This document shows positions 2,053 through 48,167 of a stretch of 64,000 nucleotides of DNA, piece after piece. A program made the position numbers and the translations under genes. This stretch comes from Minisyncoccota bacterium (GTDB lineage Bacteria > Patescibacteriota > Minisyncoccia > 2-02-FULL-40-12 > GWA2-44-9), in assembly GCA_030583765.1 (NCBI GenBank), contig CP129474.1:331921-395920 (forward strand). The letters are read 5' to 3'. The first letter of the stretch is position 1; each line of letters starts with the position of its first letter. A model generated the notes under the pieces. It had not been told where the DNA came from. It saw only the letters and a program-made list of their open reading frames with translations, and did no database searches.

Positions 2053-3767
2053 ATCTGCTCGGGAGCTTGAATGCCCAAAAGGCCGAGCCCCGTTTTCAAC
2101 ACTTTCGCCACCGTTTCAATAAGAAGAAGCCGCGCATTCCGGCGTTGCGTTTGCGCGTCCTCTAAAATACGCACCTGTTCATAGAAGCGGTTTGCTTCAT
2201 TCGCAAGTTCAGCAATATATAACGCAAGGCCATTTGTTGTTCGCGATGTCGCGCTCTGACGCACAACATCAGTAAAGTGGAGAAGGTGCCGCATGAGGCG
2301 CTCTTCGCATGGCTCAGAGAGGAGCTCTAATTGTGGGCGCACTAACAATCGCGAAAGCCGCGCCCATGCACCAGCCTTACGCGCGATACTCATGAGTCGT
2401 GCATAGGTATATTGAATGTAGGGTCCACTTGAACCAGAGAAATCGAGCATACGATCCCAGTCAAAGCGAATATCCGATGTGCGCAATTCGCGAAGGTCAT
2501 TGTATTTAATAGCGCCAATGCCCACCGCTCGCGCAACACGAGCGCGCTCCTTCTCTGAAAGGCGTGGGTTTTTCTTTTGTACCACTGCGTCGGCGCGCTG
2601 AATTGCCTCAGCCAATACTTCAGTAAGTGGCGTCGCGTTCCCTTCGCGCGTGGATAGTTTTTGTCCTTGCGCATTCAGCACAAGTCCATACTTCACGTGC
2701 ATGAGATCCGCAGTACGCAGCCCGAGTATTTCCGCCACCGCAAAAAGTTGTTGGAAGTGGAGCGACTGTTCATTCCCCACTACATAGAGCATCGCTGTGG
2801 GGTTGTGGTGGTCAAGGCGCTTTTGAAGCCCCACGAGCTCCCGCGTGAGATACAGACTTGCTCCATCGGACTTGCGGATGAGTGCTGGCGGAAGGTTTTG
2901 CGCTGAAAGGTCCACAATGAGCGCACCCTCGCTTTCTTTCGCGATGCCCTGCGCTTCTAAAAACGCCACAAGCGCGGGCATGTCTTTTTGGAGATCGCTT
3001 TCGCCTGTCATAATAGAAAACCTGATGCCCAGCTGTGTGTAGGTGTGTTCAAATGCGCGCAGTGATTCTTTTTTAAACCACTGCCAAAGTTTTTTGTTTT
3101 CTCCATCGCCGCTCTCCAGCTTGCGGAATTCTTCTTGTCCGACCGCTTCAAGTGAAGCGTCAGTTTTCAGCTCTTCATGGAAGCGCACATACAACCTCAC
3201 GAGTGTGGCGATAGGATCTTTGCGCACATCATGCGGATTACCCCAACGCTTATACGCGGCGATGAGTTTTCCAAACTGCGTCCCCCAATCGCCCAAATAG
3301 TTCCACCGAATGACGCGGTAGCCGAGAAAGTCGTGGATATTCGCGAGCGCATCTCCGATTACCGTAGAGCGCACGTGCCCCACATGCATGGGCTTTGCAA
3401 TATTTGGAGATGAATATTCAACGATGATTGTTTTTCCCCTTCCCTCTTTTGTCGCCCCTGGCCGCTGAGCACTCGCGAGCGCACGGAGCGACGCGTGCAG
3501 TGCAGATGCACGAAGCGTGATATTAATAAACCCAGGCGCAGAAGCGGTGATAGATTCGCACGCGACGGAAAGCTCTGGGTCAGCGCGCAGCGCAGAAGCA
3601 ATGTGTTCAGCAACTTCCATGGGCGACTTCTTCTGCTCTTTCGCGAGTGGGAACGCAATATTTGTGGCAAAGTCACCCAGATCCGGAGTAGGCGGAACTG
3701 AGACATCAAAAGAAATGCCGGGCACATGTGTTGCGATACGAGCACGTATCCAAGAGATATCGTACAT
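2049..3767 (-). CDS. argS: Arginine--tRNA ligase
   Basis: 572-aa ORF. SPNIAKPMHVGHVRSTVIGDAL (HIGH-type motif of ArgS). DALR anticodon-binding-like C-terminus. Confidence 0.9.
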   Translation of the reverse strand: MYDISWIRARIATHVPGISFDVSVPPTPDLGDFATNIAFPLAKEQKKSPMEVAEHIASALRADPELSVACESITASAPGFINITLRASALHASLRALASAQRPGATKEGRGKTIIVEYSSPNIAKPMHVGHVRSTVIGDALANIHDFLGYRVIRWNYLGDWGTQFGKLIAAYKRWGNPHDVRKDPIATLVRLYVRFHEELKTDASLEAVGQEEFRKLESGDGENKKLWQWFKKESLRAFEHTYTQLGIRFSIMTGESDLQKDMPALVAFLEAQGIAKESEGALIVDLSAQNLPPALIRKSDGASLYLTRELVGLQKRLDHHNPTAMLYVVGNEQSLHFQQLFAVAEILGLRTADLMHVKYGLVLNAQGQKLSTREGNATPLTEVLAEAIQRADAVVQKKNPRLSEKERARVARAVGIGAIKYNDLRELRTSDIRFDWDRMLDFSGSSGPYIQYTYARLMSIARKAGAWARLSRLLVRPQLELLSEPCEERLMRHLLHFTDVVRQSATSRTTNGLALYIAELANEANRFYEQVRILEDAQTQRRNARLLLIETVAKVLKTGLGLLGIQAPEQI

Positions 3768-3867
3768 GCTTGTATGCTACCGCAGGCGCCGCTCCTTTAC
3801 TAGACCTCCGCAATCGCCTTGAAAAAGCAGCCCGCGACCCCCATAATGAAGGAGATACTTTTTTATT

Positions 3868-4896
3868 ATGTCCCTCAAAGAACACGACAAACACATCGTT
3901 GATATCGTCAAAGACATTTCGCCAGCCGTAGTAAGTATCGCGATCTCAAAGGAACTCCCCACAATGCGTGGGCGCCTTTCTGATTCCCTCTTCGGATCAT
4001 TCGCTCCGCCACGCGAAACAGAGAAAACAAAAGTAGGCGGTGGCTCTGGCTTCATCGTGCACGCAGATGGACTCGTACTCACCAACAAGCACGTCGTCAT
4101 CGACCCCGACGCCGCATACACTGTTATTATGGGTGACGATACCGAATACCCCGCGAAGGTGCTTTCACGTGACCCCGTCAACGACATTGCCGTATTGAAG
4201 ATAGAAGGCATGAATCTCCCCGTCGCACCGATGGGTGATTCAAAGAAGATTCAGCTCGGGCAAACAGTGCTCGCCATTGGCAACGCGCTGGGCATGTTCT
4301 CAAACACTGTTTCAAAGGGTATTGTTTCTGGTCTCGCACGGAGTATCGCCGCGGCGTTGGGCTCGGGCGAGCACATGGAAGAGCTTCGTGGTGTTATTCA
4401 AACGGACGTCGCTATCAACCAAGGAAACTCTGGAGGGCCGCTCATTGATTTAGACGGTAACGTCATCGCCATCAACACGGCGGTCATCTATGGCGCGCAG
4501 AATATCGGCTTTTCTATCCCCATTAATTGGGCAAAGCAAGACATCAAGGACATTTTAGAGCACGGGCGCATTCGCCGACCGTACATCGGCCTCACCTACA
4601 TTATGTTGGGCAAGGAAGCACAGAAGAAATATGCACTCGCCACAGATCACGGCGCGCTCGTAGCCCGCGACCACCTCCCCGGCTCTGTCGCTGTGGTCCC
4701 CGGCTCCCCCGCAGACAAGGCCGGCATTCGCGAGAACGACATCATCACTGAAGTGAATGGCGAACCGCTCACCGAGAAAACGACGCTCACCGAAGCGCTC
4801 CAGGTATTCGCCGTAGGAGAAACCGTGAAGCTCTCACTCATTCGCAACGAAAAACCGATGCACGTCTCTTTGACGCTTAAAGAGCGCACCGCATAG
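3868..4896 (+). CDS. htrA: HtrA/DegP-family serine protease with C-terminal PDZ domain
   Basis: Trypsin-like catalytic motifs (HADGLVLTNKHV, DIAVLKI, GNSGGPL). PDZ-like C-terminus. Confidence 0.85.
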   Translation: MSLKEHDKHIVDIVKDISPAVVSIAISKELPTMRGRLSDSLFGSFAPPRETEKTKVGGGSGFIVHADGLVLTNKHVVIDPDAAYTVIMGDDTEYPAKVLSRDPVNDIAVLKIEGMNLPVAPMGDSKKIQLGQTVLAIGNALGMFSNTVSKGIVSGLARSIAAALGSGEHMEELRGVIQTDVAINQGNSGGPLIDLDGNVIAINTAVIYGAQNIGFSIPINWAKQDIKDILEHGRIRRPYIGLTYIMLGKEAQKKYALATDHGALVARDHLPGSVAVVPGSPADKAGIRENDIITEVNGEPLTEKTTLTEALQVFAVGETVKLSLIRNEKPMHVSLTLKERTA

Positions 4897-5342: not shown

Positions 5343-6501
5343 TATTCTCAGTATAATGCTGCGCTCCAATAGTGTCGTAAAACGAAAGTAGCTCGGTTAT
5401 TCTTTTTTTTATACAGTATGTTGTACGCACCTCTCGAGAAATATGTGGGGCGGTAAGACGCGCGCGAATAACACGACTGTAAAGCACCTTCTCAAGCGCA
5501 ATCGCTAAGGCATGTGCGTCTCCCAACGGGAATAATAGCCCACGCCGCCCACCATCCAAGAGCTCCGCGAGGCCTTCAATATCGCTCGCAACCACCGGGG
5601 TACCAAGTCCGAGCGCTTCCATCGCCACATTACACCAAGATTCTGTTCTCGACGGCACCGCGAGCACGTCGGTCGCGCGCAAGAAAGCGGGCATACGGTC
5701 ATGCGATATATAGCCCTCAAAACGCAAAAGTGAACCAACGCCAAGCTTCTGTGCCAGTGCCAGTAGCTTGCGCTCGTCCTGCCCCGCACCAATAACGCGA
5801 ACCGAGCGTGGCGATAAGACGCGTTTGAGCTTCACAAGCGCGCGCATGAGCACATCAACGCCCTTCATGTGAGAGAGCTCGCCAGCATATGTAATAGCCA
5901 CGCGCGGAATCACCGGCCCATGCAAAGCTTGTGTATCTAGCTCATCCCAGTCTTTGGCGTTATGAATAACGTGTACTCTTCGCAGGATACCAAGCTCGTC
6001 TAAGGACGCCTGCACGGCACTAGAAGGACCGGATATAATACACCGCGAATTGCGAAGATGCGCACAAAATTCATCAAGGAGCGCTTGCCGCATAATCAAC
6101 GGCAATTTCCCAATCCTTGAAAAGGGTATGTGTCTCACTGTCGTGCGGAGTGACACTACAAGGCGTGCGCCGCACCTATCGGCGCATCGCAAAGCAGTCA
6201 TCATACCATCACGCAAAGAAAACGTCGCCTGTACATGAATAACGTCAGCGCACCGCATAAGTTGCACGATGTCGGCTTCGGTACTCGCCTTCTCGAGGCA
6301 TAACCGTGGCGCTACAATATGCGGATATCGCACATGCGCATCAGTAGTAAATGTTTCTGATACGGTGCGCGTTGTCGCAATAGTGACCGAGTGCCCAAGA
6401 CTAGCTAGGGCACGAGCATCTTGAAATGTCTGCACCTCAACACCGCCGCCTTCAGCGTGTGGATAGTCGTGGATAAATAAAATATTAAGTGGGCGGTTCA
6501 T
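5308..6501 (-). CDS. Glycosyltransferase family 4 (GT-B, group 1)
   Basis: 397 aa. GT4 architecture with an EX7E-like C-terminal domain (VPSRTESWCNVAMEALGLGTPVVASD). Overlaps the downstream deacetylase gene by 4 nt. Convergent 35-nt overlap with smpB. Confidence 0.8.
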   Translation of the reverse strand: MNRPLNILFIHDYPHAEGGGVEVQTFQDARALASLGHSVTIATTRTVSETFTTDAHVRYPHIVAPRLCLEKASTEADIVQLMRCADVIHVQATFSLRDGMMTALRCADRCGARLVVSLRTTVRHIPFSRIGKLPLIMRQALLDEFCAHLRNSRCIISGPSSAVQASLDELGILRRVHVIHNAKDWDELDTQALHGPVIPRVAITYAGELSHMKGVDVLMRALVKLKRVLSPRSVRVIGAGQDERKLLALAQKLGVGSLLRFEGYISHDRMPAFLRATDVLAVPSRTESWCNVAMEALGLGTPVVASDIEGLAELLDGGRRGLLFPLGDAHALAIALEKVLYSRVIRARLTAPHISREVRTTYCIKKRITELLSFYDTIGAQHYTENINPQVRVGSLV

Positions 6502-7247
6502 GGTGTTCTAGGAGATCCAATCGCCACAAACTCGGCAAGAATTCCGGCCGATACCGCCGTTAAACGATACCATGGCGGGTTTACTATTCGGAACGCCTCG
6601 GCATATGTGCTTTTAGCACGCCCGCCGCGAAGCATGGCAAGCCCCTCATCAAAGCGGAGTAGGTCACGCCCCAAACGCTCTGCATACGCAGCACGCATAG
6701 CACGCATCTTTACGGCATACGTCTCAGAAATATCAAAGAGAATGAGCGGGTTCGCTAAAACGTTAAGGCCGTCGGTTTCCAGAATAATGCCGTGCTCAAG
6801 ACGCGCACCCAAGTGAAGGAGCGTTGAGCGAAATGCGATTTCTATTGCTCGTAGACCAATGGCGTGAGCCGCGCGATGTTCGAAGTGGTAGTCTCCGCGA
6901 TTGAGAAGAATACATACATCAGGCCGCACTTCGCGTAGATACGCCGCCAGCTCAAGCACTATATCTTCGGTCGGCGAGAGAAGTATATTCCCGCCAACAC
7001 GAATACGCGGTGGCTCCATGCCAACGTCACGTGAGAACAAGTCAATTTCTTTGCGACGATTATTTGCCATCATTGCCGTTCTCTCTCGCGCATTCGGCTT
7101 ACCATTACTACCATCGGTGCATACGAATTCGTGCACCTTCCATCCACGCGCCGCGAGCGCAGCAACAGTGCCGCCAACAAGCGTGTCGTCGTCAGGGTGC
7201 GCAGATATAATCACAGCTGTTCGAGTATTAGATTGTATTGTTTTCAT
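6498..7247 (-). CDS. PIG-L/LmbE-family N-acetylglucosaminyl deacetylase
   Basis: AVIISAHPDDDTLVGGT (HPDD motif of LmbE/PIG-L). True start taken at MKTIQ (ATG 7247). The upstream part of the track ORF is non-protein-like. ATGA-type overlap with the GT4 gene. Confidence 0.75.
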   Translation of the reverse strand: MKTIQSNTRTAVIISAHPDDDTLVGGTVAALAARGWKVHEFVCTDGSNGKPNARERTAMMANNRRKEIDLFSRDVGMEPPRIRVGGNILLSPTEDIVLELAAYLREVRPDVCILLNRGDYHFEHRAAHAIGLRAIEIAFRSTLLHLGARLEHGIILETDGLNVLANPLILFDISETYAVKMRAMRAAYAERLGRDLLRFDEGLAMLRGGRAKSTYAEAFRIVNPPWYRLTAVSAGILAEFVAIGSPRTP

Positions 7248-7302
7248 GTATAAAATAACGAGGATGTGTCGGAGCCCTATACAAGGGCTCCGACACGAAG
7301 AC

Positions 7303-8328
7303 CTAGGTGACAGTAATCGTGATGGTGCGGCCGTCAGAGATGAACGGGATGTCGGAGAGTGCCTTCCCCACCCTTGACGCATGGGCGTCCAGACAACGAC
7401 GGAGATCATCCCACCCGGCGTCCTTCTTGTCTGGCGTGACCACAGTTACCCTCGTGCTTACACTCAAGCGATCGCGCCACAGGGAAGTGAGGCTGTTGAG
7501 TGTCCCGCGCGAATCGCTATAGTCGCGCACATGCACGCGGGCGTCTGGAGACGTGATCTTTTTGATCGCAGCGTATGCGGCAAGCCCGTTGAGTACGAGC
7601 CCCGTCTTTCGCATGAGGAGACCGACGCTCGTATCGTCAGAGATACAGGCGGACAAGATCCGCGCCCCCTTACAGCGCATCGGCCGCGTACTATGAACAG
7701 CAGTAACCACGTACTGCCAATCCCAACGCACGCTATGGTACGACACCGTGTCCGCAGAGCACGCAGGGCATGGCACCCTGCAGATGGCTCGTCTAGACGG
7801 CAACGCCTCTCGAAGTTCACCGAGCGTGATGTTAATCAGGGCGCAGGTCAGGTCGCGCACACGGAGCGAACCGGCGGGCATCCCCGATGGGACAATGTGC
7901 TCCACCAGCCGCTCACGCACCTCCATGAAACGCGCCAAGCGCGTGGAGATAATCGTATCCACCGCATCTGGCAATAGCCCAATTGGTACGTGTGGGCGCA
8001 GACGCTCCTTTCCAATGAACGGAACATCTCCCCAGAACTCCTTCCACAAGTTGGAGCCGAAGTCGTCACAGTCGGCGTCCAAACCCCACTCCTGCCCGTA
8101 CTCGCCGACCGTACCAGCCGTACTGATGTCGGTCACCACAGTGCCGGGCAAACGCAGACTCGCCCATGCGGCAACGAGCAGTTCCGTTGCCCTACAGTTG
8201 GGCACGGGCGAAGAAGCGTCGCACACGTAGTGCGCGTCTTCGGTGAGCACATCACGCCGTACGTAACCGGCGCGCAAAGCTTCGTCAAGGCCACTGCCAA
8301 TATTGGAACGTCCGATTTCGCAGATCAT
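7303..8328 (-). CDS. Hypothetical protein (341 aa), high-GC gene
   Basis: Long ORF with an AGGAGGG RBS 8 nt upstream of ATG. GC content clearly higher than flanking genes. No family recognised. Confidence 0.45.
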   Translation of the reverse strand: MICEIGRSNIGSGLDEALRAGYVRRDVLTEDAHYVCDASSPVPNCRATELLVAAWASLRLPGTVVTDISTAGTVGEYGQEWGLDADCDDFGSNLWKEFWGDVPFIGKERLRPHVPIGLLPDAVDTIISTRLARFMEVRERLVEHIVPSGMPAGSLRVRDLTCALINITLGELREALPSRRAICRVPCPACSADTVSYHSVRWDWQYVVTAVHSTRPMRCKGARILSACISDDTSVGLLMRKTGLVLNGLAAYAAIKKITSPDARVHVRDYSDSRGTLNSLTSLWRDRLSVSTRVTVVTPDKKDAGWDDLRRCLDAHASRVGKALSDIPFISDGRTITITVT

Positions 8329-8645
8329 TCTAACTACCCTCCTGGATTTTCGTTAAAGAACAGTCGAGCCCCCGATCATCGGGGGCTCGTTGAGATATTT
8401 ATGTGGTGAATGTAGCTGTCTAAATTAATACCTTAATGAGCCTCCGATGTCGGAAGTAAACATAATAAAGGTATAGAGATGCCACTGGGCGGCGTGGCAC
8501 GATGGGATGTTGTCTGAAGCTGGAATCATAACTATTGAATTCTAGAAAATATACACGAGGCCATAGGCACCGTCAAGCCTGCCGCCTGGCTCACGTCACT
8601 CACGTGGTGGCGACGAATAAAGACCCCCGGCACGGTGCCGGGGGC

Positions 8646-8903
8646 TTACGGTTTGGTGAAAACGAGCGCACGCAAGTGCGCGGAGTCTGGCACATCGTTG
8701 CGCACGAGCACGCCATGCTCTTGCATGAGCTGCGCTTCTCTGGCTTGCGCCTCCTGAATGTGGCGCCGTTGGAGCGCGTTGTCTTTTTCCCACAGCGCAC
8801 GCGCTACGGGGAACAGATCAACGCAACGCGCAACGCTTGGCGCCCGCGGGCGCCGCGTGATGCCACGCACGAGCGTGCCAAGACGCGTTTCTCTCGTAGC
8901 CAT
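8646..8903 (-). CDS. Small hypothetical protein (85 aa)
   Basis: ATG preceded by AAGGAGGG. Followed by a strong bidirectional hairpin (ccccggcac/gtgccggggg). Divergent from the tmRNA promoter. Confidence 0.4.
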   Translation of the reverse strand: MATRETRLGTLVRGITRRPRAPSVARCVDLFPVARALWEKDNALQRRHIQEAQAREAQLMQEHGVLVRNDVPDSAHLRALVFTKP

Positions 8904-8992: not shown

Positions 8993-9340
8993 GGGGATGA
9001 TCGGTTTCGACGAGGTCGTTCATTGATACATCGCTGTGCGCGGATGACTATCCCCCCGCGTAATAAATCTAGTCAACTCATATTTGGCAACTCTCAACCA
9101 GTTGTTGCATACGCCTAGCTTTAGCGCGTAAGCCATCCAGCTCGGATACTCGCTACGAGATTCCTGGGTGTCATCAGCGAGATGCTCGTTTGTGCGTCCG
9201 TCCGCACGAACGCTAAGACCTGACGGAAACCCATGCACGACGTTTGGCGAAGTCATACGTGCACGGATACCAAATCGCCTATCACAGTACACGCGGTATC
9301 AGTAACACTTTGGACTGGGGTTCGATTCCCCACATCTCCA
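8993..9340 (+). ncRNA. ssrA: tmRNA (SsrA), 348 nt
   Basis: 5' GGGGATGATCGGTTTCGACG matches the tmRNA 5' consensus (GGGGCTGATTCTGGATTCGACGGG). 3' end ...GGGGTTCGATTCCCCACATCTCCA has a T-arm plus 7-bp acceptor pairing with the 5' GGGGAUG, including the G3-U70 alanine identity pair. CCA is not encoded. Candidate tag frame ends ...PVVAYA* (stop TAG 9111-9113). Confidence 0.75.
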
Positions 9341-9346
9341 CTACAG

Positions 9347-9384
9347 AAAAACAAAGCGCCCCATCGGGGCGTTTTGTTTTTCTG
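9347..9384 (+). terminator. Intrinsic terminator after tmRNA
   Basis: aaaaacaaagcgcccc-atcg-gggcgttttgttttt: 16-bp stem plus T-run. Confidence 0.7.
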
Positions 9385-9453
9385 TCTTGAAGGAAGGGAA
9401 TCGAACGGGTAGCGATAGGCCGATGCATAAAAATATAGCGGAAGAATTCTTAT

Positions 9454-10374
9454 CTAGTTACAATTCAGCGCCTTGCGCCAGCCGGCACTAAGGGCTTCAC
9501 TTTCGCTACAAAACCATCGCTCGCCCGCATCTTCGTTAATTTTCGTGGCGTTGTAAGAACGGCACCCTTCCACGTGATAGATTTTCTCTCCTGACGAGCT
9601 AATGTTCCCTTTTATATCGCATGTGCCACTTTGTGGAGCTAAAGTAGGCGTAGCTGCCTGCGCCGGCGCAGGAGTGGTAGTAGTTGAACAGGCTACGCCC
9701 CACAAACCAGTAGCGCTATTTCGGGCTTCAGTCTGCGCCGCTAGAAATACAGAATCGTATTTTACATCTGGCGGATATGTATATACCTTCGCAAATCCAT
9801 TCTTTACCAGCTCGAGATTCACAAAGAAATCACCCACATATACATAGCGAAGTAGTCGGCCGTACGCATCGCGATCTGTAACGTCTTTTTCTAACCTCAC
9901 ACTTTTTCCCAATACTAGCTCCGTATTTCGGCGAGAAGCTTCTTTCCCAAAGCATTGGACGGGCTTTCGAGGGTCGACTGTTTCCGGCGTATCGATGCCG
10001 ATATAACGAACGCGTTCGATAGTTCCATTATAGTCCACGTCAATCGTATCCCCATCAACCACGCGCGTAACGATAAACACATTTGGCAAACTTTGCGGTG
10101 ATTGTGTTTGTAGGAAGGGCGGTGTTGATACTGGAGCACTCTGTTGAAGCGTCGGTTGTTGGGTGGAGCGTTCTGCCCGCGGCGTTAGTGTTGGGGTGCT
10201 TTTTGGTAGCACAGAAGGAGTAACCGACGGACTCAATGTTACATCGCCAGTTTCAATGGCTTGGATCAGCAGCGCGCTTTCCTCCCCTTCTTCTTTCGGA
10301 GACTCCGAAAACAACGTGAGAAACAGAACCCCTCCGAGAAGAATAAGGCCTATGTTTTTGAATAACATCACCAT
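9454..10374 (-). CDS. Secreted/membrane-anchored thermonuclease (staphylococcal nuclease-like)
   Basis: N-terminal signal/TM (MLFKNIGLILLGGVLFLTLF). SNase core VVDGDTIDV...YIGIDTPE...RLLRYVY...GLW. Cys-rich C-terminal tail. Confidence 0.75.
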   Translation of the reverse strand: MVMLFKNIGLILLGGVLFLTLFSESPKEEGEESALLIQAIETGDVTLSPSVTPSVLPKSTPTLTPRAERSTQQPTLQQSAPVSTPPFLQTQSPQSLPNVFIVTRVVDGDTIDVDYNGTIERVRYIGIDTPETVDPRKPVQCFGKEASRRNTELVLGKSVRLEKDVTDRDAYGRLLRYVYVGDFFVNLELVKNGFAKVYTYPPDVKYDSVFLAAQTEARNSATGLWGVACSTTTTPAPAQAATPTLAPQSGTCDIKGNISSSGEKIYHVEGCRSYNATKINEDAGERWFCSESEALSAGWRKALNCN

Positions 10375-10444
10375 GCGCCTAGAAGTATTGATTATTTGTT
10401 CAAGCACTGCAATATAAGCACGTTTTAGCCCTTTCAGAGGTCGG

Positions 10445-10474
10445 TTGACACGTATGCATATTATGTTGTATAAT
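10445..10474 (+). promoter_or_regulatory. Consensus sigma70 promoter: TTGACA, 18-nt spacer, TATAAT
   Basis: Exact -35 and -10 hexamers upstream of the small high-GC ORF 10497..10703. Confidence 0.6.
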
Positions 10475-10496
10475 TATAGCTTAGAGAGGTGTCGAG

Positions 10497-10703
10497 ATGA
10501 AGAAGGCCATCGCAGTCTACGGAGTGAATTCCGTTCTGGGTCCGGTGCTGGTCGGCATCAGACTCGACGAGGACGCAGAAGCGCTGGCGCGGCAGTGGGA
10601 GCTCACGGTGGAAAAGAAAGAAACCGTGGGCGGATCGATCCGCCTCATCGCGCGCGACGGAGACAACCGACTGCTGTACCTGGACGAAGTTCCCATCCTC
10701 TAG
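10497..10703 (+). CDS. Small hypothetical protein (68 aa), high-GC cassette
   Basis: GAGAGG RBS, ATG start. Terminator immediately downstream. Confidence 0.45.
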   Translation: MKKAIAVYGVNSVLGPVLVGIRLDEDAEALARQWELTVEKKETVGGSIRLIARDGDNRLLYLDEVPIL

Positions 10704-10713
10704 CCCACGCCGC

Positions 10714-10763
10714 CCCGCACAAGAAGCCCCTCGCTTCGTCTGTGCGGGGTTTCTTTATTTTTA
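10714..10763 (+). terminator. Intrinsic terminator (ccccgcaca...tgtgcgggg plus T-run)
   Basis: 9-bp GC stem followed by tttctttattttt. Confidence 0.65.
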
Positions 10764-10845
10764 AGAACTAGATGAGCGGGATCCCCCCCTCACCCATACT
10801 TGCCGCGCACCTCTCGCAGTGCTACCGTGCCGGAAGGAGGTAGGC

Positions 10846-11091
10846 ATGAGCACCAGTCCGAGCGGTCCCATCGCACCCGAAGCCCCGTCGCCATCCCTCT
10901 GGCAGATGTCTCAAGAGGAGCTCTTGGCGCTGGCGGTTGTCAGGCTGCAGCTCGCGTGCACAAACTACAAACTCGCGCTCGAAGCCTCCGATGCGGGCAC
11001 TCGAGATGCGATGCGGCTTGCCGCAGAGCTGCGCAAAACAGAAGCCGAAGAGATCCTCGCGATCTACCGCGAGAGACTCCACCTCGACTAA
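10846..11091 (+). CDS. Small hypothetical protein (81 aa), high-GC cassette
   Basis: Strong RBS GGAAGGAGGT, 6 nt, then ATG (MSTSPSGPIAPE...). The track ORF starts earlier at a weaker start. Confidence 0.45.
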   Translation: MSTSPSGPIAPEAPSPSLWQMSQEELLALAVVRLQLACTNYKLALEASDAGTRDAMRLAAELRKTEAEEILAIYRERLHLD

Positions 11092-11127
11092 CCTCCCCTC
11101 CCCCGCTCGTCACACCAGACGAACGGG
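11090..11127 (+). terminator. Terminator, copy 1 of an identical 38-nt element (cccccgctcgtcacaccagacgaacgggggcttcttt)
   Basis: GC hairpin plus T-run. Identical sequence recurs at 11825..11862. Confidence 0.6.
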
Positions 11128-11141
11128 GGCTTCTTTATATA

Positions 11142-11170
11142 TTGACATAATGCTGAAAGCAGCGTAATAT
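11142..11170 (+). promoter_or_regulatory. Near-consensus sigma70 promoter: TTGACA, 17 nt, TAATAT
   Basis: Upstream of the membrane protein gene, followed by RBS AAGGAGG. Confidence 0.6.
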
Positions 11171-11194
11171 ATACGTCAGCCAAGGAGGCGTGAA

Positions 11195-11821
11195 GTGTAT
11201 GAGATCGCCGTTCTAGGGACTATCGTTCTCATGCTGGTCTCGGCGGCGGACTACGTTCGTCGCGCATGGATCCGCGAAACAAACCCAGTACCCGCAACGT
11301 GGATCCTCATGATGGTCATGATGGGTCTGTCGTTCTGGATGTATTGGGACAGTCCTCGGAAGTCGTTGACCGCCAACATCGGCGTTACCGCTGGCGTAGT
11401 GAACATTGTGATCATTCTCTCGGGAGTGATCGCGGCGAACATTCGCTACGGAACGCTGTCGGTGGCCTTCGACAAAGTGCAGAAGTGGTGTCTCGCAGGC
11501 GGAGCGGGAGTTGTGGCGTTTTGGTCCTTCACGGACCAACCGCTCATCTCTTACGCCCTTGTGCAGTGCGTTGCTCTCATAGGCTACTTCGCTACAGTGA
11601 AGCGGCTGCTGAAAGCGGAACGGAGCACGGAGCCACTTTTTCTCTGGGTTGCGGTGCTGTTCGCAAACCTGTGCGCACTCTACCCCGCCTGGGTCAAGAA
11701 CGATCCGTTCTCGTGGATCTACCTCGGCCGCGCAGTGCCCTCAACAATCCTTGTGATCTTCTTGATCGCGAGGATCAAGGGTAGGATGCGCCGAACAAGA
11801 ACAAGAGAACTCGATGCATAA
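11195..11821 (+). CDS. Polytopic membrane protein (208 aa), unknown function
   Basis: GTG start 5 nt after AAGGAGG. About 6 predicted TM helices. High GC. Confidence 0.5.
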   Translation: MYEIAVLGTIVLMLVSAADYVRRAWIRETNPVPATWILMMVMMGLSFWMYWDSPRKSLTANIGVTAGVVNIVIILSGVIAANIRYGTLSVAFDKVQKWCLAGGAGVVAFWSFTDQPLISYALVQCVALIGYFATVKRLLKAERSTEPLFLWVAVLFANLCALYPAWVKNDPFSWIYLGRAVPSTILVIFLIARIKGRMRRTRTRELDA

Positions 11822-11824
11822 CCG

Positions 11825-11862
11825 CCCCCGCTCGTCACACCAGACGAACGGGGGCTTCTTTT
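11825..11862 (+). terminator. Terminator, copy 2 of the identical 38-nt element
   Basis: Exact repeat of 11090..11127. Confidence 0.6.
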
Positions 11863-11912
11863 TACACACCCTGCGCACCGCATCCGTCATAAATACAGTA
11901 CACTAGAGCGAT

Positions 11913-12329
11913 ATGAAACATCCTATCTTCTGGCTTCGCATCGCGCTTGGTTGGCTTTTCGCATACGCAGGGATCGTGAAGATCATCAACCCCGCATGGA
12001 GTGCGGCGGGCTATTTGATGAGCGCAAAAACATTTTCCGGATTCTACGCATGGCTCGCAGGACCCAGCATGATCGGTATCACCAACCTCCTCAATGAGTG
12101 GGGCCTTTTGTTGGTTGGCCTCGGGCTTTTGAGCGGCGTGCTCGCCCGCCCCGCAGCATACGCAGGCGCACTCATGATGGTCCTCTACTACTTCCCTGTT
12201 CTCGATTTCCCTTACATTGGCGAACACTCCTTGTTAGTGGATGAGCACATCATCTACGCATTCGCACTCCTCCTCATCGCGCGAGCACCGTCGCTCGGCC
12301 CCATTCTACGCATCCCTAGACGCTCCTAA
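11913..12329 (+). CDS. DoxX-family membrane protein
   Basis: 138 aa. LRIALGWLFAYAGIVKI... is a typical DoxX N-terminus with 3-4 TM helices. Confidence 0.6.
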   Translation: MKHPIFWLRIALGWLFAYAGIVKIINPAWSAAGYLMSAKTFSGFYAWLAGPSMIGITNLLNEWGLLLVGLGLLSGVLARPAAYAGALMMVLYYFPVLDFPYIGEHSLLVDEHIIYAFALLLIARAPSLGPILRIPRRS

Positions 12330-12331
12330 CC

Positions 12332-12787
12332 ATGCGCGTCCCCTCTTTTTCTCTCCAAGATCAGGATGGAGTCACTCACACCCCAGAAGAATGGATGGGC
12401 CAATGGCTGTTGATCTACGTTTACCCGAAAGATAACACGCCGGGATGCACGAAGGAGGCGTGCGCTATTCGCGATGACTTTGAAACATTCCGCACGCTTG
12501 GCATTGCGGTGGCAGGCATGAGCGGAGATTCCGTACAGAGCCACAAAAAGTTTGCCGACGCATACCAGCTACCGTTCCCACTGCTCTCTGACCCCACCAA
12601 AGAAACCATGAAAGCACTGGGCGCCATTGGAGAAAAGAAGTTCATGGGACGCACGTTCGAGGGCATTCAACGAAAATCCTTTTTAGTGAATCCGGAAGGT
12701 GAGATTGTGAAAACATACGAGAAAGTCACGCCCGCAGAGCATGCACAAGAAGTGCTCGCGGACGTTCGCGCTCTCCTAGACAAATAA
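12332..12787 (+). CDS. bcp: Peroxiredoxin Bcp (thiol peroxidase)
   Basis: YPKDNTPGCTKEAC peroxidatic Cys motif within a thioredoxin fold. Confidence 0.85.
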   Translation: MRVPSFSLQDQDGVTHTPEEWMGQWLLIYVYPKDNTPGCTKEACAIRDDFETFRTLGIAVAGMSGDSVQSHKKFADAYQLPFPLLSDPTKETMKALGAIGEKKFMGRTFEGIQRKSFLVNPEGEIVKTYEKVTPAEHAQEVLADVRALLDK

Positions 12788-12801: not shown

Positions 12802-13311
12802 TTGTATGCCTTCTCAAGGAGGAGGCTTTTGAGTAAAAAGAAGGTCATCAAAGGCGTGCCACTCACGCCCCTGCATATCGAGATCATGTTGGCGGCACAC
12901 GCCGTATGCCGCTACCACAGGTTCAAGCTGGTCTGGGGAAGCCAGCAGACTGGGGCCGCCCACCCAAGCTACGTAATCTACCCGTGTGAAGATCCGAACA
13001 CGTGGCACGGCGCGAGCCACCTGTGCCGGATCAGCATCCCCGAATGGGGACGCGGGGGCGCGATCGAGCTCCCCATCGCGCACGACCAAGTCGGCTTCAC
13101 CAACGGGTGGACGCCCGTGCGCGTCCACATCGGATCCGAGGCTTCGTACGGCGTTTCGGATATCCCCCTCTATGGGCTCATCTGGGGTGTGGATCTCCGA
13201 CGCCTCGGGCCCGGGCCCTATCGCACCAGGAAGTCCAAAGAGTTTGAGTACCGGCGCCTTCTGGAGTTCCGCGTTCGCGGCCGTCGCTACCTCGGCCCCA
13301 TCCCCAGATAG
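12802..13311 (+). CDS. Hypothetical protein, high-GC segment. Start uncertain (possible TTG after AGGAGGAGG)
   Basis: ORF in a very high-GC stretch with an equally long antisense ORF. Followed by terminator 13314-13359. Confidence 0.3.
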   Translation: MYAFSRRRLLSKKKVIKGVPLTPLHIEIMLAAHAVCRYHRFKLVWGSQQTGAAHPSYVIYPCEDPNTWHGASHLCRISIPEWGRGGAIELPIAHDQVGFTNGWTPVRVHIGSEASYGVSDIPLYGLIWGVDLRRLGPGPYRTRKSKEFEYRRLLEFRVRGRRYLGPIPR

Positions 13312-13376
13312 CCTCTCGCCCGTCATGAGCACAGCTCGTGGCGGGCGCTGTCTTTTTTTGGTAGCATCTGGACACC

Positions 13377-34996: not shown

Positions 34997-35193
34997 CCGG
35001 CCGGCGCCCACAAGGGCGCCGTTCTGTTCTCCTCTGGAAAAGGTTTGCAAAATGCGGTATCCTCTCTTCCTGTTAGGATGGTAGGTTATTTGTTTTTTAA
35101 ATTATGCGCGGGTGGGCCGAATGTGAGCGGGTGAACATTCGGCGGGTTTCAAAAGAAACCCAGGTCGACACCCGCAACAGTTTTTTAAATTAT

Positions 35194-35277
35194 GCGCGGG
35201 TGGCGAAATTGGCAGACGCACTACCTTGAGGTGGTAGCGCCCGCAAGGGCATGGAGGTTCAAGTCCTCTCCCGCGCA
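35194..35277 (+). tRNA. tRNA-Leu (anticodon GAG), type II
   Basis: Acceptor GCGCGGG/CCCGCGC, anticodon stem CTACC/GGTAG, loop TTGAGGT, long variable arm, T-arm GGAGGTTCAAGTCCTCT. Confidence 0.8.
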
Positions 35278-47325: not shown

Positions 47326-47815
47326 GCCATCTCTCGTTAGGATTTTGGGCATTGATCCCGGCACTCACCGAATCGGTTTTGGCGTTATAGAGCTTGAGGG
47401 GCAAAGGCTTTCCCCTCTCGCATTTAACACCTTAGAATATACCGCGTCGTCTCATGGGGATCGCCTCGTGGCGCTTGAAAAAGATGTCGAAGCGCTCATA
47501 AAAAAGCACCGCCCACATGCAGTCGCTATGGAACGACTCTTTTTTGCACAGAACAAAACGACCGCACTAAGCGTTAGCGAAGCTCGAGGTGTTGTCTCCT
47601 TATGCGTTGCGCGGCGCGGCCTAACACTCCTGGAGTTTACTCCGTCACAAGTAAAACAGGCCGTCGCCTCCCACGGAAAGGCTGACAAGCACCAGGTTAC
47701 ACACATGGTAAAACTCCTCCTCCGCATCACCGACAAGATCGCTTACGACGACACAACAGACGCTCTCGCCGTTGCGATTTGTGGCGCAAGTGCGTATCGC
47801 CCAGAATATCGTTGA
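47291..47815 (+). CDS. ruvC: Holliday junction resolvase RuvC
   Basis: ILGIDPGTHRIGFGV and the catalytic acidic residues. Overlaps the ruvB end by 35 nt. Confidence 0.8.
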   Translation: MEKPTLSHAARRPSLVRILGIDPGTHRIGFGVIELEGQRLSPLAFNTLEYTASSHGDRLVALEKDVEALIKKHRPHAVAMERLFFAQNKTTALSVSEARGVVSLCVARRGLTLLEFTPSQVKQAVASHGKADKHQVTHMVKLLLRITDKIAYDDTTDALAVAICGASAYRPEYR

Positions 47816-47839
47816 CATAGAATTTAGAAGCACTACAAT
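47812..47839 (+). promoter_or_regulatory. Near-consensus sigma70 promoter: TTGACA, 16 nt, TACAAT
   Basis: Upstream of the acidic-repeat small ORF. Confidence 0.5.
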
Positions 47840-47871
47840 ATCGACACACTGATTCGTAACGCTGCGTTGGT

Positions 47872-48132
47872 ATGGGGGCCCACGCACCCATACACGTCGC
47901 TCCGTTGCGCTCCATGATGTACGCGTTTGAAGAGTTGTGGCTCCACGCCGTTGCACGCCTTGAAGAGGGAGAAGAATCCTTTGAACTTGGCGACGACGAA
48001 GACGATCTTGATGATGAGGATCTCGACGAGGAAGAAGATGAGGACGAAGAGGAAGACGACGAAGACGATCTTGATGATGAGGATCTCGACGAGGAAGAAG
48101 ATGAGGACGAAGAGGAAGAGCTGCTTGCCTAA
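47872..48132 (+). CDS. Small highly acidic protein with a perfect 63-nt tandem repeat (DDEDDLDDEDLDEEEDEDEEE x2)
   Basis: Repeat units 47992-48054 and 48055-48117. Promoter upstream, terminator downstream. The 163-aa antisense ORF is a repeat artefact. Confidence 0.4.
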   Translation: MGAHAPIHVAPLRSMMYAFEELWLHAVARLEEGEESFELGDDEDDLDDEDLDEEEDEDEEEDDEDDLDDEDLDEEEDEDEEEELLA

Positions 48133-48167
48133 ACATAAACCCCCAGCATTGCTGGGGGTTTATGTTT
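48131..48167. terminator. Bidirectional terminator (aaacataaaccccc-agcattgc-tgggggtttatgttt)
   Basis: 14-bp stem shared by the acidic ORF (+) and tyrS (-). Confidence 0.65.

What the first reader, a model, noticed from the sequence alone, without database searches (positions are those of the whole stretch)
10440..11870. Three tandem high-GC mini-cassettes downstream of tmRNA, each a small ORF with its own near-consensus promoter, strong SD and terminator; two terminators are an identical 38-nt sequence
At 10445 (TTGACA, 18 nt, TATAAT) and 11142 (TTGACA, 17 nt, TAATAT) there are textbook sigma70 promoters followed by GGAGG-type RBSs. The 68-aa, 81-aa and 208-aa TM-protein ORFs have about 60 % GC, well above the about 50 % of the surrounding core genes. 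The hairpin cccccgctcgtcacaccagacgaacgggggcttcttt is present twice (11090-11127, 11825-11862). Similar stand-alone units occur at 39567-40037 and 47812-48167. tmRNA 3' ends are classical island integration sites, and with the secreted nuclease gene this looks like an acquired accessory block. No att repeat of the tmRNA end was found.
Basis: seen in the sequence. Interest (0 to 1): 0.55.

Follow-up and report, generated by a model that had tools for sequence, protein, structure and literature searches.

The report
Gene insertion flanked by duplicated terminator
Next to the tmRNA gene of a tiny uncultivated (Patescibacteria) bacterium lies a fairly ordinary variable stretch of three small genes; one of them, a widely shared gene for a membrane protein shaped like a SWEET/PQ-loop transporter, differs from the nearest relatives by a one-gene insertion sitting just behind its neighbour's transcription stop signal and bracketed by two copies of that signal.

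Summary
The sequence features are real, with corrections. The exact repeat is 37 nt, at 11100-11136 and 11825-11861. Only ORF1 and ORF2 are about 60% GC; ORF3 is 56%. Only two of the three units have near-consensus promoters. Such promoters and terminators are the normal style in this genome.

The "one acquired block" reading is only partly right. Two close relatives (about 86% backbone identity) show that ssrA-doxX is a mosaic hot spot, and the three ORFs have three different histories.
- **ORF1** is present, but fast-evolving, in one relative.
- **ORF2** is present in both relatives and has unusually few synonymous changes.
- **ORF3** is absent from both. They carry a single terminator copy exactly where the window has terminator-promoter-ORF3-terminator.

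The twin hairpins therefore mark a one-gene indel, most likely a recent insertion with a 43-nt target duplication.

The parts
8993..9343 (+). tmRNA gene (ssrA), the left anchor of the variable segment. Homology with relative L013 continues to about 9413. In L010 it stops exactly at 9343.
   Evidence: ARAGORN; Rfam RF00023, 106 bits; blastn map; sequence comparison
9454..10407 (-). Secreted staphylococcal-type nuclease with a C-terminal 'sunset' domain. This is variable content: absent at this position in L013, and only about 70% nt-identical over part of the gene in L010.
   Evidence: Pfam SNase 4.5e-25; NCBIfam sunset domain 1.1e-10
10445..10474 (+). ORF1 promoter-like site (TTGACA-18-TATAAT). 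It is conserved in L013 as TTGACA-18-TACAAT.
10497..10703 (+). ORF1, 68 aa. A small soluble beta-beta-alpha-beta-beta-beta protein of unknown function. The only small homologue found is a 71-aa protein (42-44% identity) at the same position in L013.
10712..10761 (+). ORF1 intrinsic terminator: a bulged 10+5-bp hairpin followed by a T-tract. It is conserved in L013.
10798..10845 (+). Conserved leader with a GGAGG RBS, 98% identical to L010. In L010 and L013 it serves a 76-81-aa CxxC zinc-ribbon ORF that is missing from the window. In the window it is fused directly to the ORF2 ATG.
10846..11091 (+). ORF2, 81 aa, helical, function unknown. It lies directly upstream of doxX in L010 and L013. It is 94-96% nt-identical to them, against an 86% backbone, and has very few synonymous changes.
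11097..11139 (+). Terminator copy 1 (exact core 11100-11136). This is ORF2's own intrinsic terminator. Its orthologue is the single copy present in L010 and L013.
11137..11821 (+). Segment present in the window but absent from both close relatives. It holds the promoter (11142-11170), the RBS and ORF3.
   Evidence: alignment A2; blastn map; left junction identical in the independent assembly L009
11195..11821 (+). ORF3, 208 aa, with a GTG start. A 7-TM protein with a PQ-loop/SWEET/KDEL-receptor-like fold, from a conserved and horizontally mobile Patescibacteria family with no Pfam match.
11822..11864 (+). Terminator copy 2 (exact core 11825-11861). It starts immediately after the ORF3 stop codon. 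Its 3' flank continues into the doxX upstream region exactly as the single copy does in the relatives.
11913..12787 (+). doxX (11913-12329) and bcp/prxQ (12332-12787). They form the right-hand syntenic backbone, about 86% nt-identical to L010 and L013.

Best explanation
The 1.4-kb stretch is three independent monocistronic genes, not one acquired block. They lie in the hypervariable interval between ssrA and doxX of a Candidatus Paceibacterota (Patescibacteria/CPR) genome. Each gene is expressed from ordinary sigma-70-type signals and ends at an intrinsic terminator.

**ORF1 and ORF2.** These are lineage-restricted small proteins that already occupy this position in the nearest relatives. ORF1 evolves fast. 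The ORF2 unit is nearly identical across lineages, which most likely reflects recent recombinational exchange.

**ORF3.** This is a one-gene indel, most likely a recent insertion. A unit of about 685 bp (promoter, RBS and coding sequence) sits immediately 3' of the T-tract of ORF2's terminator. The 43-nt terminator is present again at its 3' end.
- The two identical hairpins are therefore the target duplication left by the insertion.
- The second copy now terminates the new gene.

**ORF3 product.** It is a 7-TM membrane protein with the 3+1+3 fold of PQ-loop/SWEET/KDEL-receptor proteins. I infer a small-solute facilitator or secondary transporter, which would be useful to an auxotrophic CPR cell. 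The gene spreads horizontally among Patescibacteria as a single-gene unit.

**Shown**
- Presence or absence of ORF3, with exact boundaries.
- Duplication of the terminator.
- The fold.
- Context diversity and compositional mismatch of family members.
- Recurrence of flanking direct repeats in the family.

**Inferred**
- The direction of the event (gain rather than loss).
- Transport function and substrate.
- The enzymology of insertion. Candidates are a staggered break with fill-in, or Campbell-type insertion-duplication. The recombinase is unknown.
For: **Comparative map**
- The backbone is 83-86% nt-identical to L010 and L013. The alignment jumps from window 11136 straight to 11822 in both.
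- Alignment A2 shows one terminator in the relatives. It carries the left flank of copy 1 and the right flank of copy 2.
- The two window copies are identical, including the loop ACACCA. The orthologous copies differ only in the loop (ACGCCA, ACCGCA). This argues that the duplication is younger than the lineage split.
- The left junction is 100% reproduced in an independent sample.

**ORF3 family**
- 133 homologues at E <= 0.001; the 120 listed are 54-95% identical. None has a Pfam domain.
- 22 GTDB species representatives span several CPR classes.
- All contexts differ.
- Gene GC exceeds flank GC by up to 0.15, for example a 93%-identical copy in a 41% GC context.
- Nucleotide homology to the 88-90%-identical copies runs only from 11182 to about 11799.
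- ORF3 is 82-83% aa-identical to L004 and L017. SmpB, IF3, L20 and FtsH from the same pairs are 44-69% identical.

**Flanking direct repeats in the family**
- Repeats are seen in the window (43 nt), L033 (82 nt), L058/59/60 (50 nt), L031/56 (70 nt) and L041 (37 nt).
- Apart from L031 and L033, which share one repeat family, the repeat sequences are unrelated between loci. Except in L041, the left copy lies 4-20 nt after the stop codon of an unrelated upstream ORF.
- Frequency is 5 of about 43 ORF3 loci against 7 of 323 control genes (Fisher p = 0.008).

**Fold**
- AlphaFold2 pLDDT is 95.2, with 7 helices.

**ORF1 and ORF2 histories:**
Against: - The tree is ((L010, L013), window). Parsimony therefore cannot polarise gain in the window against a single loss in the L010+L013 ancestor. 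Gene conversion could keep the two copies identical.
- No recombinase, transposase or terminal inverted repeats accompany the unit in the window. A 43-nt target duplication fits no well-known bacterial transposition chemistry.
- The promoter-bearing 45 nt at the 5' end of the insert has no match in the other ORF3 loci, so no donor is identified.
- In L031 and L033 the same terminator family flanks ORF3 although the upstream genes differ. That fits repeats travelling with the gene better than pure target duplication.
- The enrichment of flanking repeats is moderate. Similar duplications flank other genes in the same loci.
- Transport function rests on fold alone. No PQ-loop or MtN3 Pfam match was found, and no solved homologue by sequence.
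Confidence: 0.62

Rival explanations
1. The nuclease gene plus all three small ORFs form one horizontally acquired island that integrated at the 3' end of ssrA.
For: - ssrA is a classical island target.
- Relative L010 has a serine-recombinase island beginning exactly at the ssrA 3' end (PMC3146451).
- The nuclease gene is variable.
- The three ORFs have the three highest GC3 values of 64 ORFs in the window.
Against: - ORF1 is present in L013, and ORF2 in both L010 and L013, in the same syntenic position. Both keep conserved promoter, leader and terminator.
- The three units have different divergence levels (71%, 94-96%, absent) and so different histories.
- No serine recombinase was found in the 64 kb, no integrase among the ten nearby ORFs scanned, and no ssrA-end repeat.
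Confidence: 0.08
2. ORF3 is ancestral at this site. The ancestor of L010 and L013 lost it by recombination or slippage between the two directly repeated terminators. The identity of the two copies in the window is maintained by gene conversion.
For: - The tree ((L010, L013), window) allows a single loss.
- Perfect 37-nt direct repeats 725 nt apart are good deletion substrates.
- A more distant syntenic relative (L004) also has an ORF3 homologue in the ssrA to RNase T/infC interval, although directly after ssrA.
Against: - This does not explain how two identical terminators arose in the first place.
- The loop nucleotides differ among orthologues but not between the window's paralogous copies.
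- ORF3 copies about 88-90% nt-identical occur in contigs with unrelated flanks of 41-55% GC, so recent transfer of this allele is independently supported.
- Young, unrelated flanking repeats recur in other lineages.
Confidence: 0.2
3. The units are integron-like (CALIN-like) cassettes. The hairpin is an attC-like recombination site used by a trans-acting recombinase, which excises and inserts ORF-plus-hairpin circles.
For: - The filled site is hairpin-ORF-hairpin, and the empty site has a single hairpin.
- Several related loci show arrays of genes separated by the same repeat of 50-135 nt (L054, L055, L039, L067).
- Large serine recombinases lie next to ORF3 homologues in L040 and L065.
Against: - By reading, there are no RYYYAAC/GTTRRRY core sites and no extrahelical-base architecture.
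- The hairpins are canonical GC-rich terminators with T-tracts.
- ORF1 and ORF3 have their own near-consensus promoters.
- The ORF1 hairpin is unrelated in sequence.
- The repeat is derived from the local upstream gene's 3' end and differs in nearly every lineage.
- No recombinase was found by the checks run near the window locus.
Confidence: 0.07
4. The duplicated terminator and the ORF3 insertion are an assembly artefact, a chimeric path through a repeat in a mixed population.
For: Four Logan contigs of the same organism end about 38 nt after the ORF2 stop codon, that is, at the first repeat copy. This is the expected behaviour of a k-mer assembler at a 37-nt repeat.
Against: - An independent sample (DRR779145, L009) reads straight through ORF2-terminator-promoter-ORF3 at 100% identity.
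- Analogous structures in other lineages are reproduced in two or three independent assemblies (L058/59/60 and L031/56).
Confidence: 0.02

Closest known systems
ssrA/tRNA-targeted genomic islands, especially the Dehalococcoides ssrA-specific islands with the DsiB serine recombinase (PMC3146451; Islander database PMC4383910)
   Same: The segment directly downstream of ssrA differs in gene content between close relatives. Relative L010 has a 536-aa large serine recombinase on the reverse strand whose 3' end overlaps ssrA. This is the DsiB arrangement described in that paper.
   Different: [quoted passage not shown] ORF1 and ORF2 are syntenically conserved rather than island cargo. The ORF3 indel lies 1.8 kb from ssrA and is bounded by a terminator, not by an ssrA fragment.
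Integron gene cassettes and CALIN arrays
   Same: Single-ORF units each end in a hairpin-forming repeat. The filled site has two copies of the hairpin and the empty site has one.
   Different: There is no IntI and no attC core motifs. The hairpins are ordinary intrinsic terminators. Two of the three units carry their own near-consensus promoters. The repeat is copied from the local target rather than carried by the cassette.
Target-site duplications of transposable elements, casposons, and repeat duplication at CRISPR spacer integration; also laboratory Campbell-type insertion-duplication
   Same: An insert is flanked by a direct duplication of target sequence that is single-copy in the empty site.
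   Different: The duplication is 37-82 nt, or up to about 135 nt around neighbouring genes. That is far longer than typical bacterial TSDs of 2-15 bp. There is no transposase, Cas1 or terminal inverted repeat, and the cargo is a single ordinary gene.
PQ-loop / SWEET / KDEL-receptor 7-TM proteins (MtN3-like clan): cystinosin, AtSWEET13, KDELR2
   Different: There is no significant sequence match to PF04193 or PF03083, or to any PDB chain. No Pro-Gln motif lies inside TM1; the conserved prolines sit at the starts of TM2 and TM6. Most bacterial relatives of SWEETs are 3-TM SemiSWEETs, and 6-7-TM bacterial forms are the minority (PMC5742349).

Membership tests
ssrA/tRNA-integrated genomic island | Integrase (tyrosine or serine recombinase) gene at the island edge next to the target gene | tested here: not met
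   A tblastn of the L010 and L040 large serine recombinases against the 64-kb window matches only the antisense of ssrA. The neighbours are SNase, DoxX, Bcp and RNase T. Tyrosine recombinases were not scanned across the whole window. The feature is met in relative L010.
ssrA/tRNA-integrated genomic island | Direct repeat of the 3' end of the target gene at the distal boundary | tested here: not met
   Searches with 14-24-nt tails and internal 18-mers of the ssrA 3' end, allowing mismatches, found only tRNA T-arms in the window, L010, L013 and L004.
ssrA/tRNA-integrated genomic island | Presence/absence polymorphism of the whole block among close relatives | tested here: not met
   The block is not gained or lost as a unit. 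The SNase gene, ORF1, a CxxC ORF and ORF3 vary independently, and ORF2 is always present.
ssrA/tRNA-integrated genomic island | Atypical base composition or codon usage | tested here: inconclusive
   GC3 ranks 1-3 of 64 ORFs (z 1.9-2.9). However, total GC of ORF3 (0.561) equals that of the core gene doxX (0.554), and codon bias is unremarkable (9th of 48).
Integron cassette / CALIN | attC site with R''/L''-L'/R' architecture and RYYYAAC...GTTRRRY cores | tested here: not met
   By reading, the repeats are GC-rich near-perfect stems followed by T-tracts, and no GTTRRRY core is present. No attC covariance model was available to run.
Integron cassette / CALIN | Promoterless cassettes expressed from a common Pc next to intI | tested here: not met
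   ORF1 and ORF3 have their own 12/12 and 10/12 promoter matches. No intI was seen among the neighbours scanned.
Integron cassette / CALIN | Filled site = repeat-ORF-repeat; empty site = one repeat | tested here: met
   Alignment A2 and the blastn map.
Rho-independent (intrinsic) terminator | GC-rich stem-loop directly followed by a T-tract, placed just after a stop codon on the coding strand | tested here: met
   One search lists the ORF1 hairpin. One search gives -20 to -26 kcal/mol and z of -4.8 to -7.7 for all three. Differences among the orthologous hairpins are confined to the loop; the T-tail also varies. Termination activity itself cannot be tested here.
PQ-loop / SWEET (MtN3-like) transporters | 7-TM 3+1+3 triple-helix-bundle fold | tested here: met
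PQ-loop / SWEET (MtN3-like) transporters | Significant match to the family HMMs (PF04193 PQ-loop, PF03083 MtN3_slv) | tested here: not met
   There is no such hit for ORF3 or any of 38 family members, even at E <= 1. Only sub-threshold LAB_N (8 members) and YibE_F hits appear.
PQ-loop / SWEET (MtN3-like) transporters | Conserved Pro-Gln (PQ) hinge motif in TM1 and TM5 | tested here: inconclusive
   No Pro occurs within helix 1 (residues 2-25). P31 is invariant and P147 nearly invariant; they lie at the starts of helices 2 and 6, in NPVPATW and TEPLFLW. No residue-level structural alignment was available.
PQ-loop / SWEET (MtN3-like) transporters | Solute transport activity | not testable with these tools
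   Requires an expression or uptake assay.
Transposable element with target-site duplication | Transposase and terminal inverted repeats | tested here: not met
   The insert holds only a promoter and ORF3. No inverted repeats were found at its ends.

The most novel reading that the evidence does not exclude
ORF3-family genes, and some of their neighbours, may be moved in Patescibacteria by a previously undescribed cassette-like process. In it, a single gene would be inserted in the intergenic spacer just 3' of a resident gene's terminator, and 37-135 nt of that spacer would be duplicated. The newcomer would thereby gain a terminator. This would be either a recombinase-in-trans system or a break-repair system distinct from integrons and transposons. 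Its cargo would be a bacterial 7-TM SWEET/PQ-loop-fold transporter that is conserved more strongly than housekeeping proteins such as SmpB, IF3, L20 and FtsH.
Probability: 0.15. Interest if true: 0.8.

Novelty: new variant of a known kind. Interest (0 to 1): 0.5.

Why it matters
- **Gene turnover.** How CPR/Patescibacteria with very small genomes gain and lose genes is poorly understood. This locus gives a base-pair-resolved example: an ssrA-adjacent hot spot with four independent indels among three close relatives. One is a clean single-gene insertion whose footprint is a duplicated terminator.
- **Possible new route of gene gain.** If the recurring long flanking duplications around ORF3-family genes reflect a dedicated mechanism, this would be a new way to add single genes to streamlined genomes.
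- **The protein family.** ORF3 defines an unannotated, very strongly conserved and horizontally mobile 7-TM family with a SWEET/PQ-loop fold. It is a good candidate for a nutrient-uptake function in host-dependent bacteria, and it can be tested by heterologous expression.

Tried and rejected
- **Exact look-up of ORF3** in the contig index found nothing.
- **Regulatory RNA.** Rfam at gathering threshold on the window and on 26 ORF3 loci found only tmRNA, tRNA and rRNA. No riboswitch appears in the long leaders of some homologues. An E-value-mode scan of 9300-12000 found only tmRNA.
- **ORF2 as a structured RNA,** to explain its low synonymous divergence, was rejected. Folding z-scores are -1.5 and -0.15.
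- **Phage or defence origin.** PHROGs and PADLOC gave no hits for ORF1-3 or for the L010 island proteins. No ORF3 relative was found in IMG/VR.
- **ORF1 function.**
  - A full HMMER scan gave one true small homologue, plus additive weak matches to Ig-like repeat proteins. I treat those weak matches as non-informative.
- **ORF3 sequence matches.** A profile search against PDB sequences found nothing.
- **att repeat of the ssrA end:** none found.
- **Dispersed REP-like element.** The hairpin occurs only twice in 64 kb. The rest of the genome could not be searched.
- **Shared upstream partner gene for ORF3.** The upstream ORFs in four loci are unrelated to one another.
- **Literature.** A search for terminator duplication at gene insertions found nothing relevant.
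Full report
**1. Source organism and local gene order**

The window is 52.4% GC. It carries a tmRNA gene at 8993-9343 and ten tRNA genes.

ORF1 is 100% identical to a protein that NCBI names as from a "Candidatus Paceibacterota bacterium" (QY311_01770), seen on a 615-kb contig. The nuclease next door has the "sunset" domain. From memory, that domain is typical of Patescibacteria.

The gene order around the finding is as follows:
- smpB
- GT4 glycosyltransferase (-)
- PIG-L (-)
- a 341-aa hypothetical (-)
- an 85-90-aa ORF (-)
- ssrA
- SNase-sunset nuclease (-)
- ORF1, ORF2, ORF3
- doxX, then bcp/prxQ
- a hypothetical
- a DEDD/RNase T exonuclease
- infC

**2. Checking the observation**

Confirmed:
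- The promoter scan finds TTGACA-18-TATAAT at 10445 (12/12) and TTGACA-17-TAATAT at 11142 (10/12). The 5-kb region has 7 promoter-like sites against 2.7 expected.
- The three ORFs exist and have GAGG or GGAGG ribosome-binding sites.
- Each is followed by a hairpin plus T-tract: -25.9, -20.4 and -24.7 kcal/mol, with no shuffle of 200 folding as well.
- The sequence CCCCCGCTCGTCACACCAGACGAACGGGGGCTTCTTT occurs exactly twice, at 11100-11136 and 11825-11861. No other match with up to 3 mismatches exists in 64 kb, and none is expected by chance. Extended, the repeat is 43 nt at 41/43.

Composition:
- GC is 0.604 for ORF1, 0.618 for ORF2 and 0.561 for ORF3.
- The window mean is 0.524 and doxX is 0.554.
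- For 207-246-nt windows the 95th percentile is about 0.60-0.61.
- Other patches of 0.60 GC or more exist.
- At third codon positions the three ORFs rank 1-3 of 64 ORFs, with z = 2.9, 2.2 and 1.9. The fourth is the 341-aa hypothetical, which is also missing from a close relative.

- ORF2 has no near-consensus promoter.
They are the normal signal style here and do not mark cassettes.

**3. Comparison with relatives**

ORF2 has two homologues, at 93% and 88% identity, in groundwater contigs. Their loci (L010-L015) are syntenic with the window. The order is ORF2 homologue, doxX, bcp, a hypothetical, RNase T, infC, rpmI, rplT, tRNA-Glu and tsaD.

Backbone identities are 0.859 (window-L010), 0.857 (window-L013) and 0.893 (L010-L013).

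The blastn map and direct reading show a mosaic:
- **(a) Window 5343 to about 8860** (GT4, PIG-L, 341-aa ORF) has no counterpart in L013.
- **(b) Homology after ssrA.** It runs to about 9413 in L013 but stops exactly at the ssrA 3' end in L010.
  - L010 then has a roughly 7-kb island. It contains a 536-aa large serine recombinase on the reverse strand that overlaps ssrA by 88 nt, a 135-aa ORF, a divergent SNase, a SLFN/AlbA-domain protein and others.
  - This matches the published description of Dehalococcoides ssrA islands. [quoted passage not shown]
- **(c) The SNase gene** (window 9414-10444) is absent from L013.
- **(d) ORF1** with its promoter and terminator is present in L013, at 71% nt and 42% aa identity. 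It is absent from L010.
- **(e) A 76-81-aa CxxC zinc-ribbon ORF** lies between a shared leader and ORF2 in both relatives. It is missing from the window, where the leader's GGAGG is fused directly to the ORF2 ATG.
- **(f) ORF2** with its leader and terminator is 94-98% identical.
- **(g) Window 11137-11821** is absent from both relatives.
- **(h) From 11822 onward** the backbone resumes.

The three "cassettes" thus have three different histories.

**4. What the identical hairpins are**

In L010 and L013 a single copy of the terminator lies between the ORF2 stop codon and doxX. Its 5' flank matches that of window copy 1, and its 3' flank (ACACACCC...) matches that of window copy 2 (alignment A2).

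The window therefore reads [ORF2]-T-[promoter-RBS-ORF3]-T-[doxX], where the relatives read [ORF2]-T-[doxX]. The insert begins right after the T-tract of copy 1. Copy 2 begins right after the ORF3 stop codon.

The two window copies share the loop ACACCA. The orthologues have ACGCCA and ACCGCA, with unchanged stems. The paralogous copies are therefore younger than the lineage split, or else they are homogenised.

An independent assembly from another sample reads through ORF1-ORF2-T-promoter-ORF3 at 100% identity. Four other assemblies stop about 38 nt after the ORF2 stop codon, at the first repeat copy.

Because L010 and L013 are sister lineages, parsimony alone cannot separate gain in the window from loss in their common ancestor.

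**5. The ORF3 family**

*Distribution and context*
- ORF3 has 133 homologues at E <= 0.001. The 120 listed are 54-95% identical, mostly about 200 aa, and none has a Pfam domain.
- A scan of GTDB species representatives returned 22 loci. They are labelled Harrisonbacteria, Uhrbacteria, Jorgensenbacteria, Moraniibacteriota, Microgenomatus and so on.
- A metagenome scan returned 36 loci. A viral scan returned none.
- The genomic contexts are all different.
- Only L004 is broadly syntenic. There the homologue sits 39 nt after ssrA, in the same ssrA to RNase T/infC interval.

*Composition and conservation*
- The gene is usually richer in GC than its surroundings. A 93%-identical copy has GC 0.563 and GC3 0.745 against flanks of 0.414. 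Differences reach +0.15.
- Copies about 88-90% nt-identical to the window's occur in contigs of 42-55% GC. Homology runs only from the RBS (11182) to about 22 nt before the stop codon.
- Between the window and L004, ORF3 is 82% aa-identical, while SmpB, IF3, L20 and ArgRS are 50-69% identical. Against L017, ORF3 is 83% identical, while SmpB is 44% and FtsH 61%.
- Together these results show a gene under very strong constraint that is also exchanged horizontally.

*Flanking direct repeats recur*
- A Smith-Waterman comparison of upstream and downstream flanks, with shuffled controls, gives the following:

| Locus | z-score | Repeat |
|---|---|---|
| L033 | 48 | 82 nt, 49 nt exact |
| L058/59/60 | about 30 | 50 nt, 49/50, three independent assemblies |
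| window | 28 | 43 nt |
| L031/L056 | 20-27 | about 70 nt, diverged |
| L041 | 15 | 37 nt, not a hairpin |

- Apart from L031 and L033, which share one repeat family, the repeat sequences are unrelated between loci.
- In four loci the left copy starts 4-20 nt after the stop codon of a same-strand upstream ORF. Those upstream ORFs are unrelated to one another.
- The frequency is 5 of about 43 distinct ORF3 loci, against 7 of 323 other genes in the same loci (p = 0.008).
- Some of the control hits are immediate neighbours of ORF3.
  - In L054 the whole 135-nt intergenic spacer is duplicated at 99% identity on either side of the gene just upstream of ORF3.
  - In L055 three copies of a 50-nt repeat follow ORF3.
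- One caveat applies. L031 and L033 share the same repeat family although their upstream genes differ.
- In L040 a 95%-identical ORF3 lies between 161-nt inverted repeats. It sits next to a 551-aa large serine recombinase whose 3' coding end is repeated beyond ORF3.

*My reading*
- ORF3 is a frequently mobilised single-gene unit.
- Long flanking duplications are a recurrent footprint of its arrival.
- The enzymology is not identified.

**6. What ORF3 encodes**
- With a 38-sequence alignment, AlphaFold2 gives pLDDT 95.2 and seven transmembrane helices.
- Foldseek's top probable matches are cystinosin, the KDEL receptor and SWEET.
- No Pfam family reaches threshold. Eight of 38 members give weak LAB_N hits.
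- A profile search against PDB sequences finds nothing.
- Invariant residues are rich in Trp, Tyr, Asn, Gln, Asp and Glu inside the helices. That is compatible with a polar-solute binding pocket, but this is inference only.
- I therefore assign the fold with confidence, the transporter function as likely, and the substrate as unknown.
- Most bacterial SWEET relatives are 3-TM SemiSWEETs. Bacterial forms with 6-7 TM helices are reported as the minority (PMC5742349).

**7. ORF1 and ORF2**
- **ORF1.** It has one small homologue, the L013 protein. Its confident small beta-beta-alpha-beta-beta-beta model has no significant structural neighbour.
- **ORF2.** It is a predicted helical 81-aa protein.
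  - Over its last 65 codons it shows only 2-5 synonymous and 4 non-synonymous codon differences in each of the three pairwise comparisons. doxX and bcp show 34-52 synonymous differences over 139-152 codons.
  - It does not fold better than shuffled sequence on either strand.
  - The simplest reading is recent recombinational exchange of the ORF2 unit among these lineages.
- Neither ORF matches phage or defence libraries.

**8. Verdict**
- The island interpretation is right about the neighbourhood, which is an ssrA-adjacent hot spot with a bona fide recombinase island in a relative. It is wrong about the three ORFs forming a single acquired block.
- The most informative element is the twin terminator. 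It marks a one-gene indel of a mobile, unannotated gene whose product has a SWEET/PQ-loop-like fold.
- Whether the recurrent long flanking duplications reflect a dedicated mechanism remains open. I rate that reading at about 15%.

Noticed in passing
window 5343-8860: A segment of about 3.5 kb lies between smpB and ssrA. It holds a GT4 glycosyltransferase, a PIG-L deacetylase and a 341-aa hypothetical (GC 0.60, no Pfam). It is absent from the close relative L013, where smpB is followed almost directly by the 85-aa ORF and ssrA. This is a second indel at the same hot spot.
   Followed up: partly
window 10798-10848; L010 7684-8003; L013 7690-8003: A 76-81-aa CxxC zinc-ribbon ORF lies between a shared leader/RBS and ORF2 in both relatives. 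It is precisely missing from the window, so the leader's GGAGG now serves ORF2.
   Followed up: partly
window 10897-11091: ORF2 shows 2-5 synonymous codon differences over 65 codons against its relatives. About 21 would be expected from neighbouring genes. Non-synonymous changes are about as frequent as synonymous ones, and no RNA structure signal is present. This suggests very recent exchange of the small unit between lineages.
   Followed up: partly
L010 375-7684: Relative L010 has a roughly 7-kb island that starts exactly at the ssrA 3' end. It carries a 536-aa large serine recombinase (reverse strand, overlapping ssrA by 88 nt), a 135-aa ORF, an SNase, a SLFN/AlbA_2 protein and three hypotheticals. 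The layout matches Dehalococcoides DsiB-type ssrA islands, but I found no ssrA-end direct repeat.
   Followed up: partly
L040 697-4141 (also L016): A 95%-identical ORF3 copy lies between 161-nt inverted repeats (2481-2641 and 3746-3906). It is next to a 551-aa large serine recombinase. The recombinase's C-terminal coding segment is repeated once inverted (2370-2496) and once direct (3983-4141, 89% identical). This could be an invertible or excisable 3-kb recombinase-plus-ORF3 element.
   Followed up: partly
L054 1498-2992; L055 3650-4862; L039 6778-7792; L067 285-1038: Other single genes in these Patescibacteria loci are also flanked by near-identical direct repeats of 50-135 nt of intergenic sequence (terminator plus leader). 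In L054 the duplicated spacer is the one that precedes ORF3.
   Followed up: partly
L016 150-396; L017 7710-7826; L018 4845-5000; L031 4900-5000; L033 4760-5000: Several ORF3 homologues have 95-230-nt leaders between a consensus-like promoter and the start codon. L031 and L033 share a conserved leader segment (...TCGCAAGAC..CGGCAGGG.CAGCCG.GTTCTTTCAAGGAG). No Rfam family matches. The window copy has only a leader of about 20 nt.
   Followed up: partly
window 39399-39429: A 31-nt sequence 87% identical to the 3' end of tRNA-Arg (39238-39268) lies 161 nt downstream of that tRNA, just before tRNA-Lys. It looks like an att-type remnant of a past integration.
   Followed up: no
window 35092-35115 and 35180-35203: An exact 24-nt direct repeat (GTTTTTTAAATTATGCGCGGGTGG) occurs 88 nt apart. 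The second copy includes the 5' end of tRNA-Leu(GAG).
   Followed up: no
window 47917-48132: A stand-alone unit encodes a very acidic D/E-rich small ORF built from a 63-nt internal repeat (47992-48117). It has an 11/12 promoter match, a long leader and an 18-bp terminator stem.
   Followed up: no
L027 5001-5600: An ORF3 homologue about 68-70% identical to the window's sits on a contig that the depositor labels Candidatus Nanoarchaeia (DPANN archaeon). Six neighbouring ORFs have no Pfam hit, so I could not tell whether this is a binning error or a cross-domain transfer.
   Followed up: partly
L013 11683-12976: A reverse-transcriptase (RVT_1) gene, possibly a group II intron, is inserted between rplT and tRNA-Glu/tsaD in L013. 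It is absent from the window and from L010.
   Followed up: no
window 12802-13332: The 63% GC stretch between bcp and the exonuclease gene carries two almost coextensive ORFs on opposite strands (169 aa on + and 172 aa on -). Neither has a family match. Relatives have a + strand gene called here.
   Followed up: no
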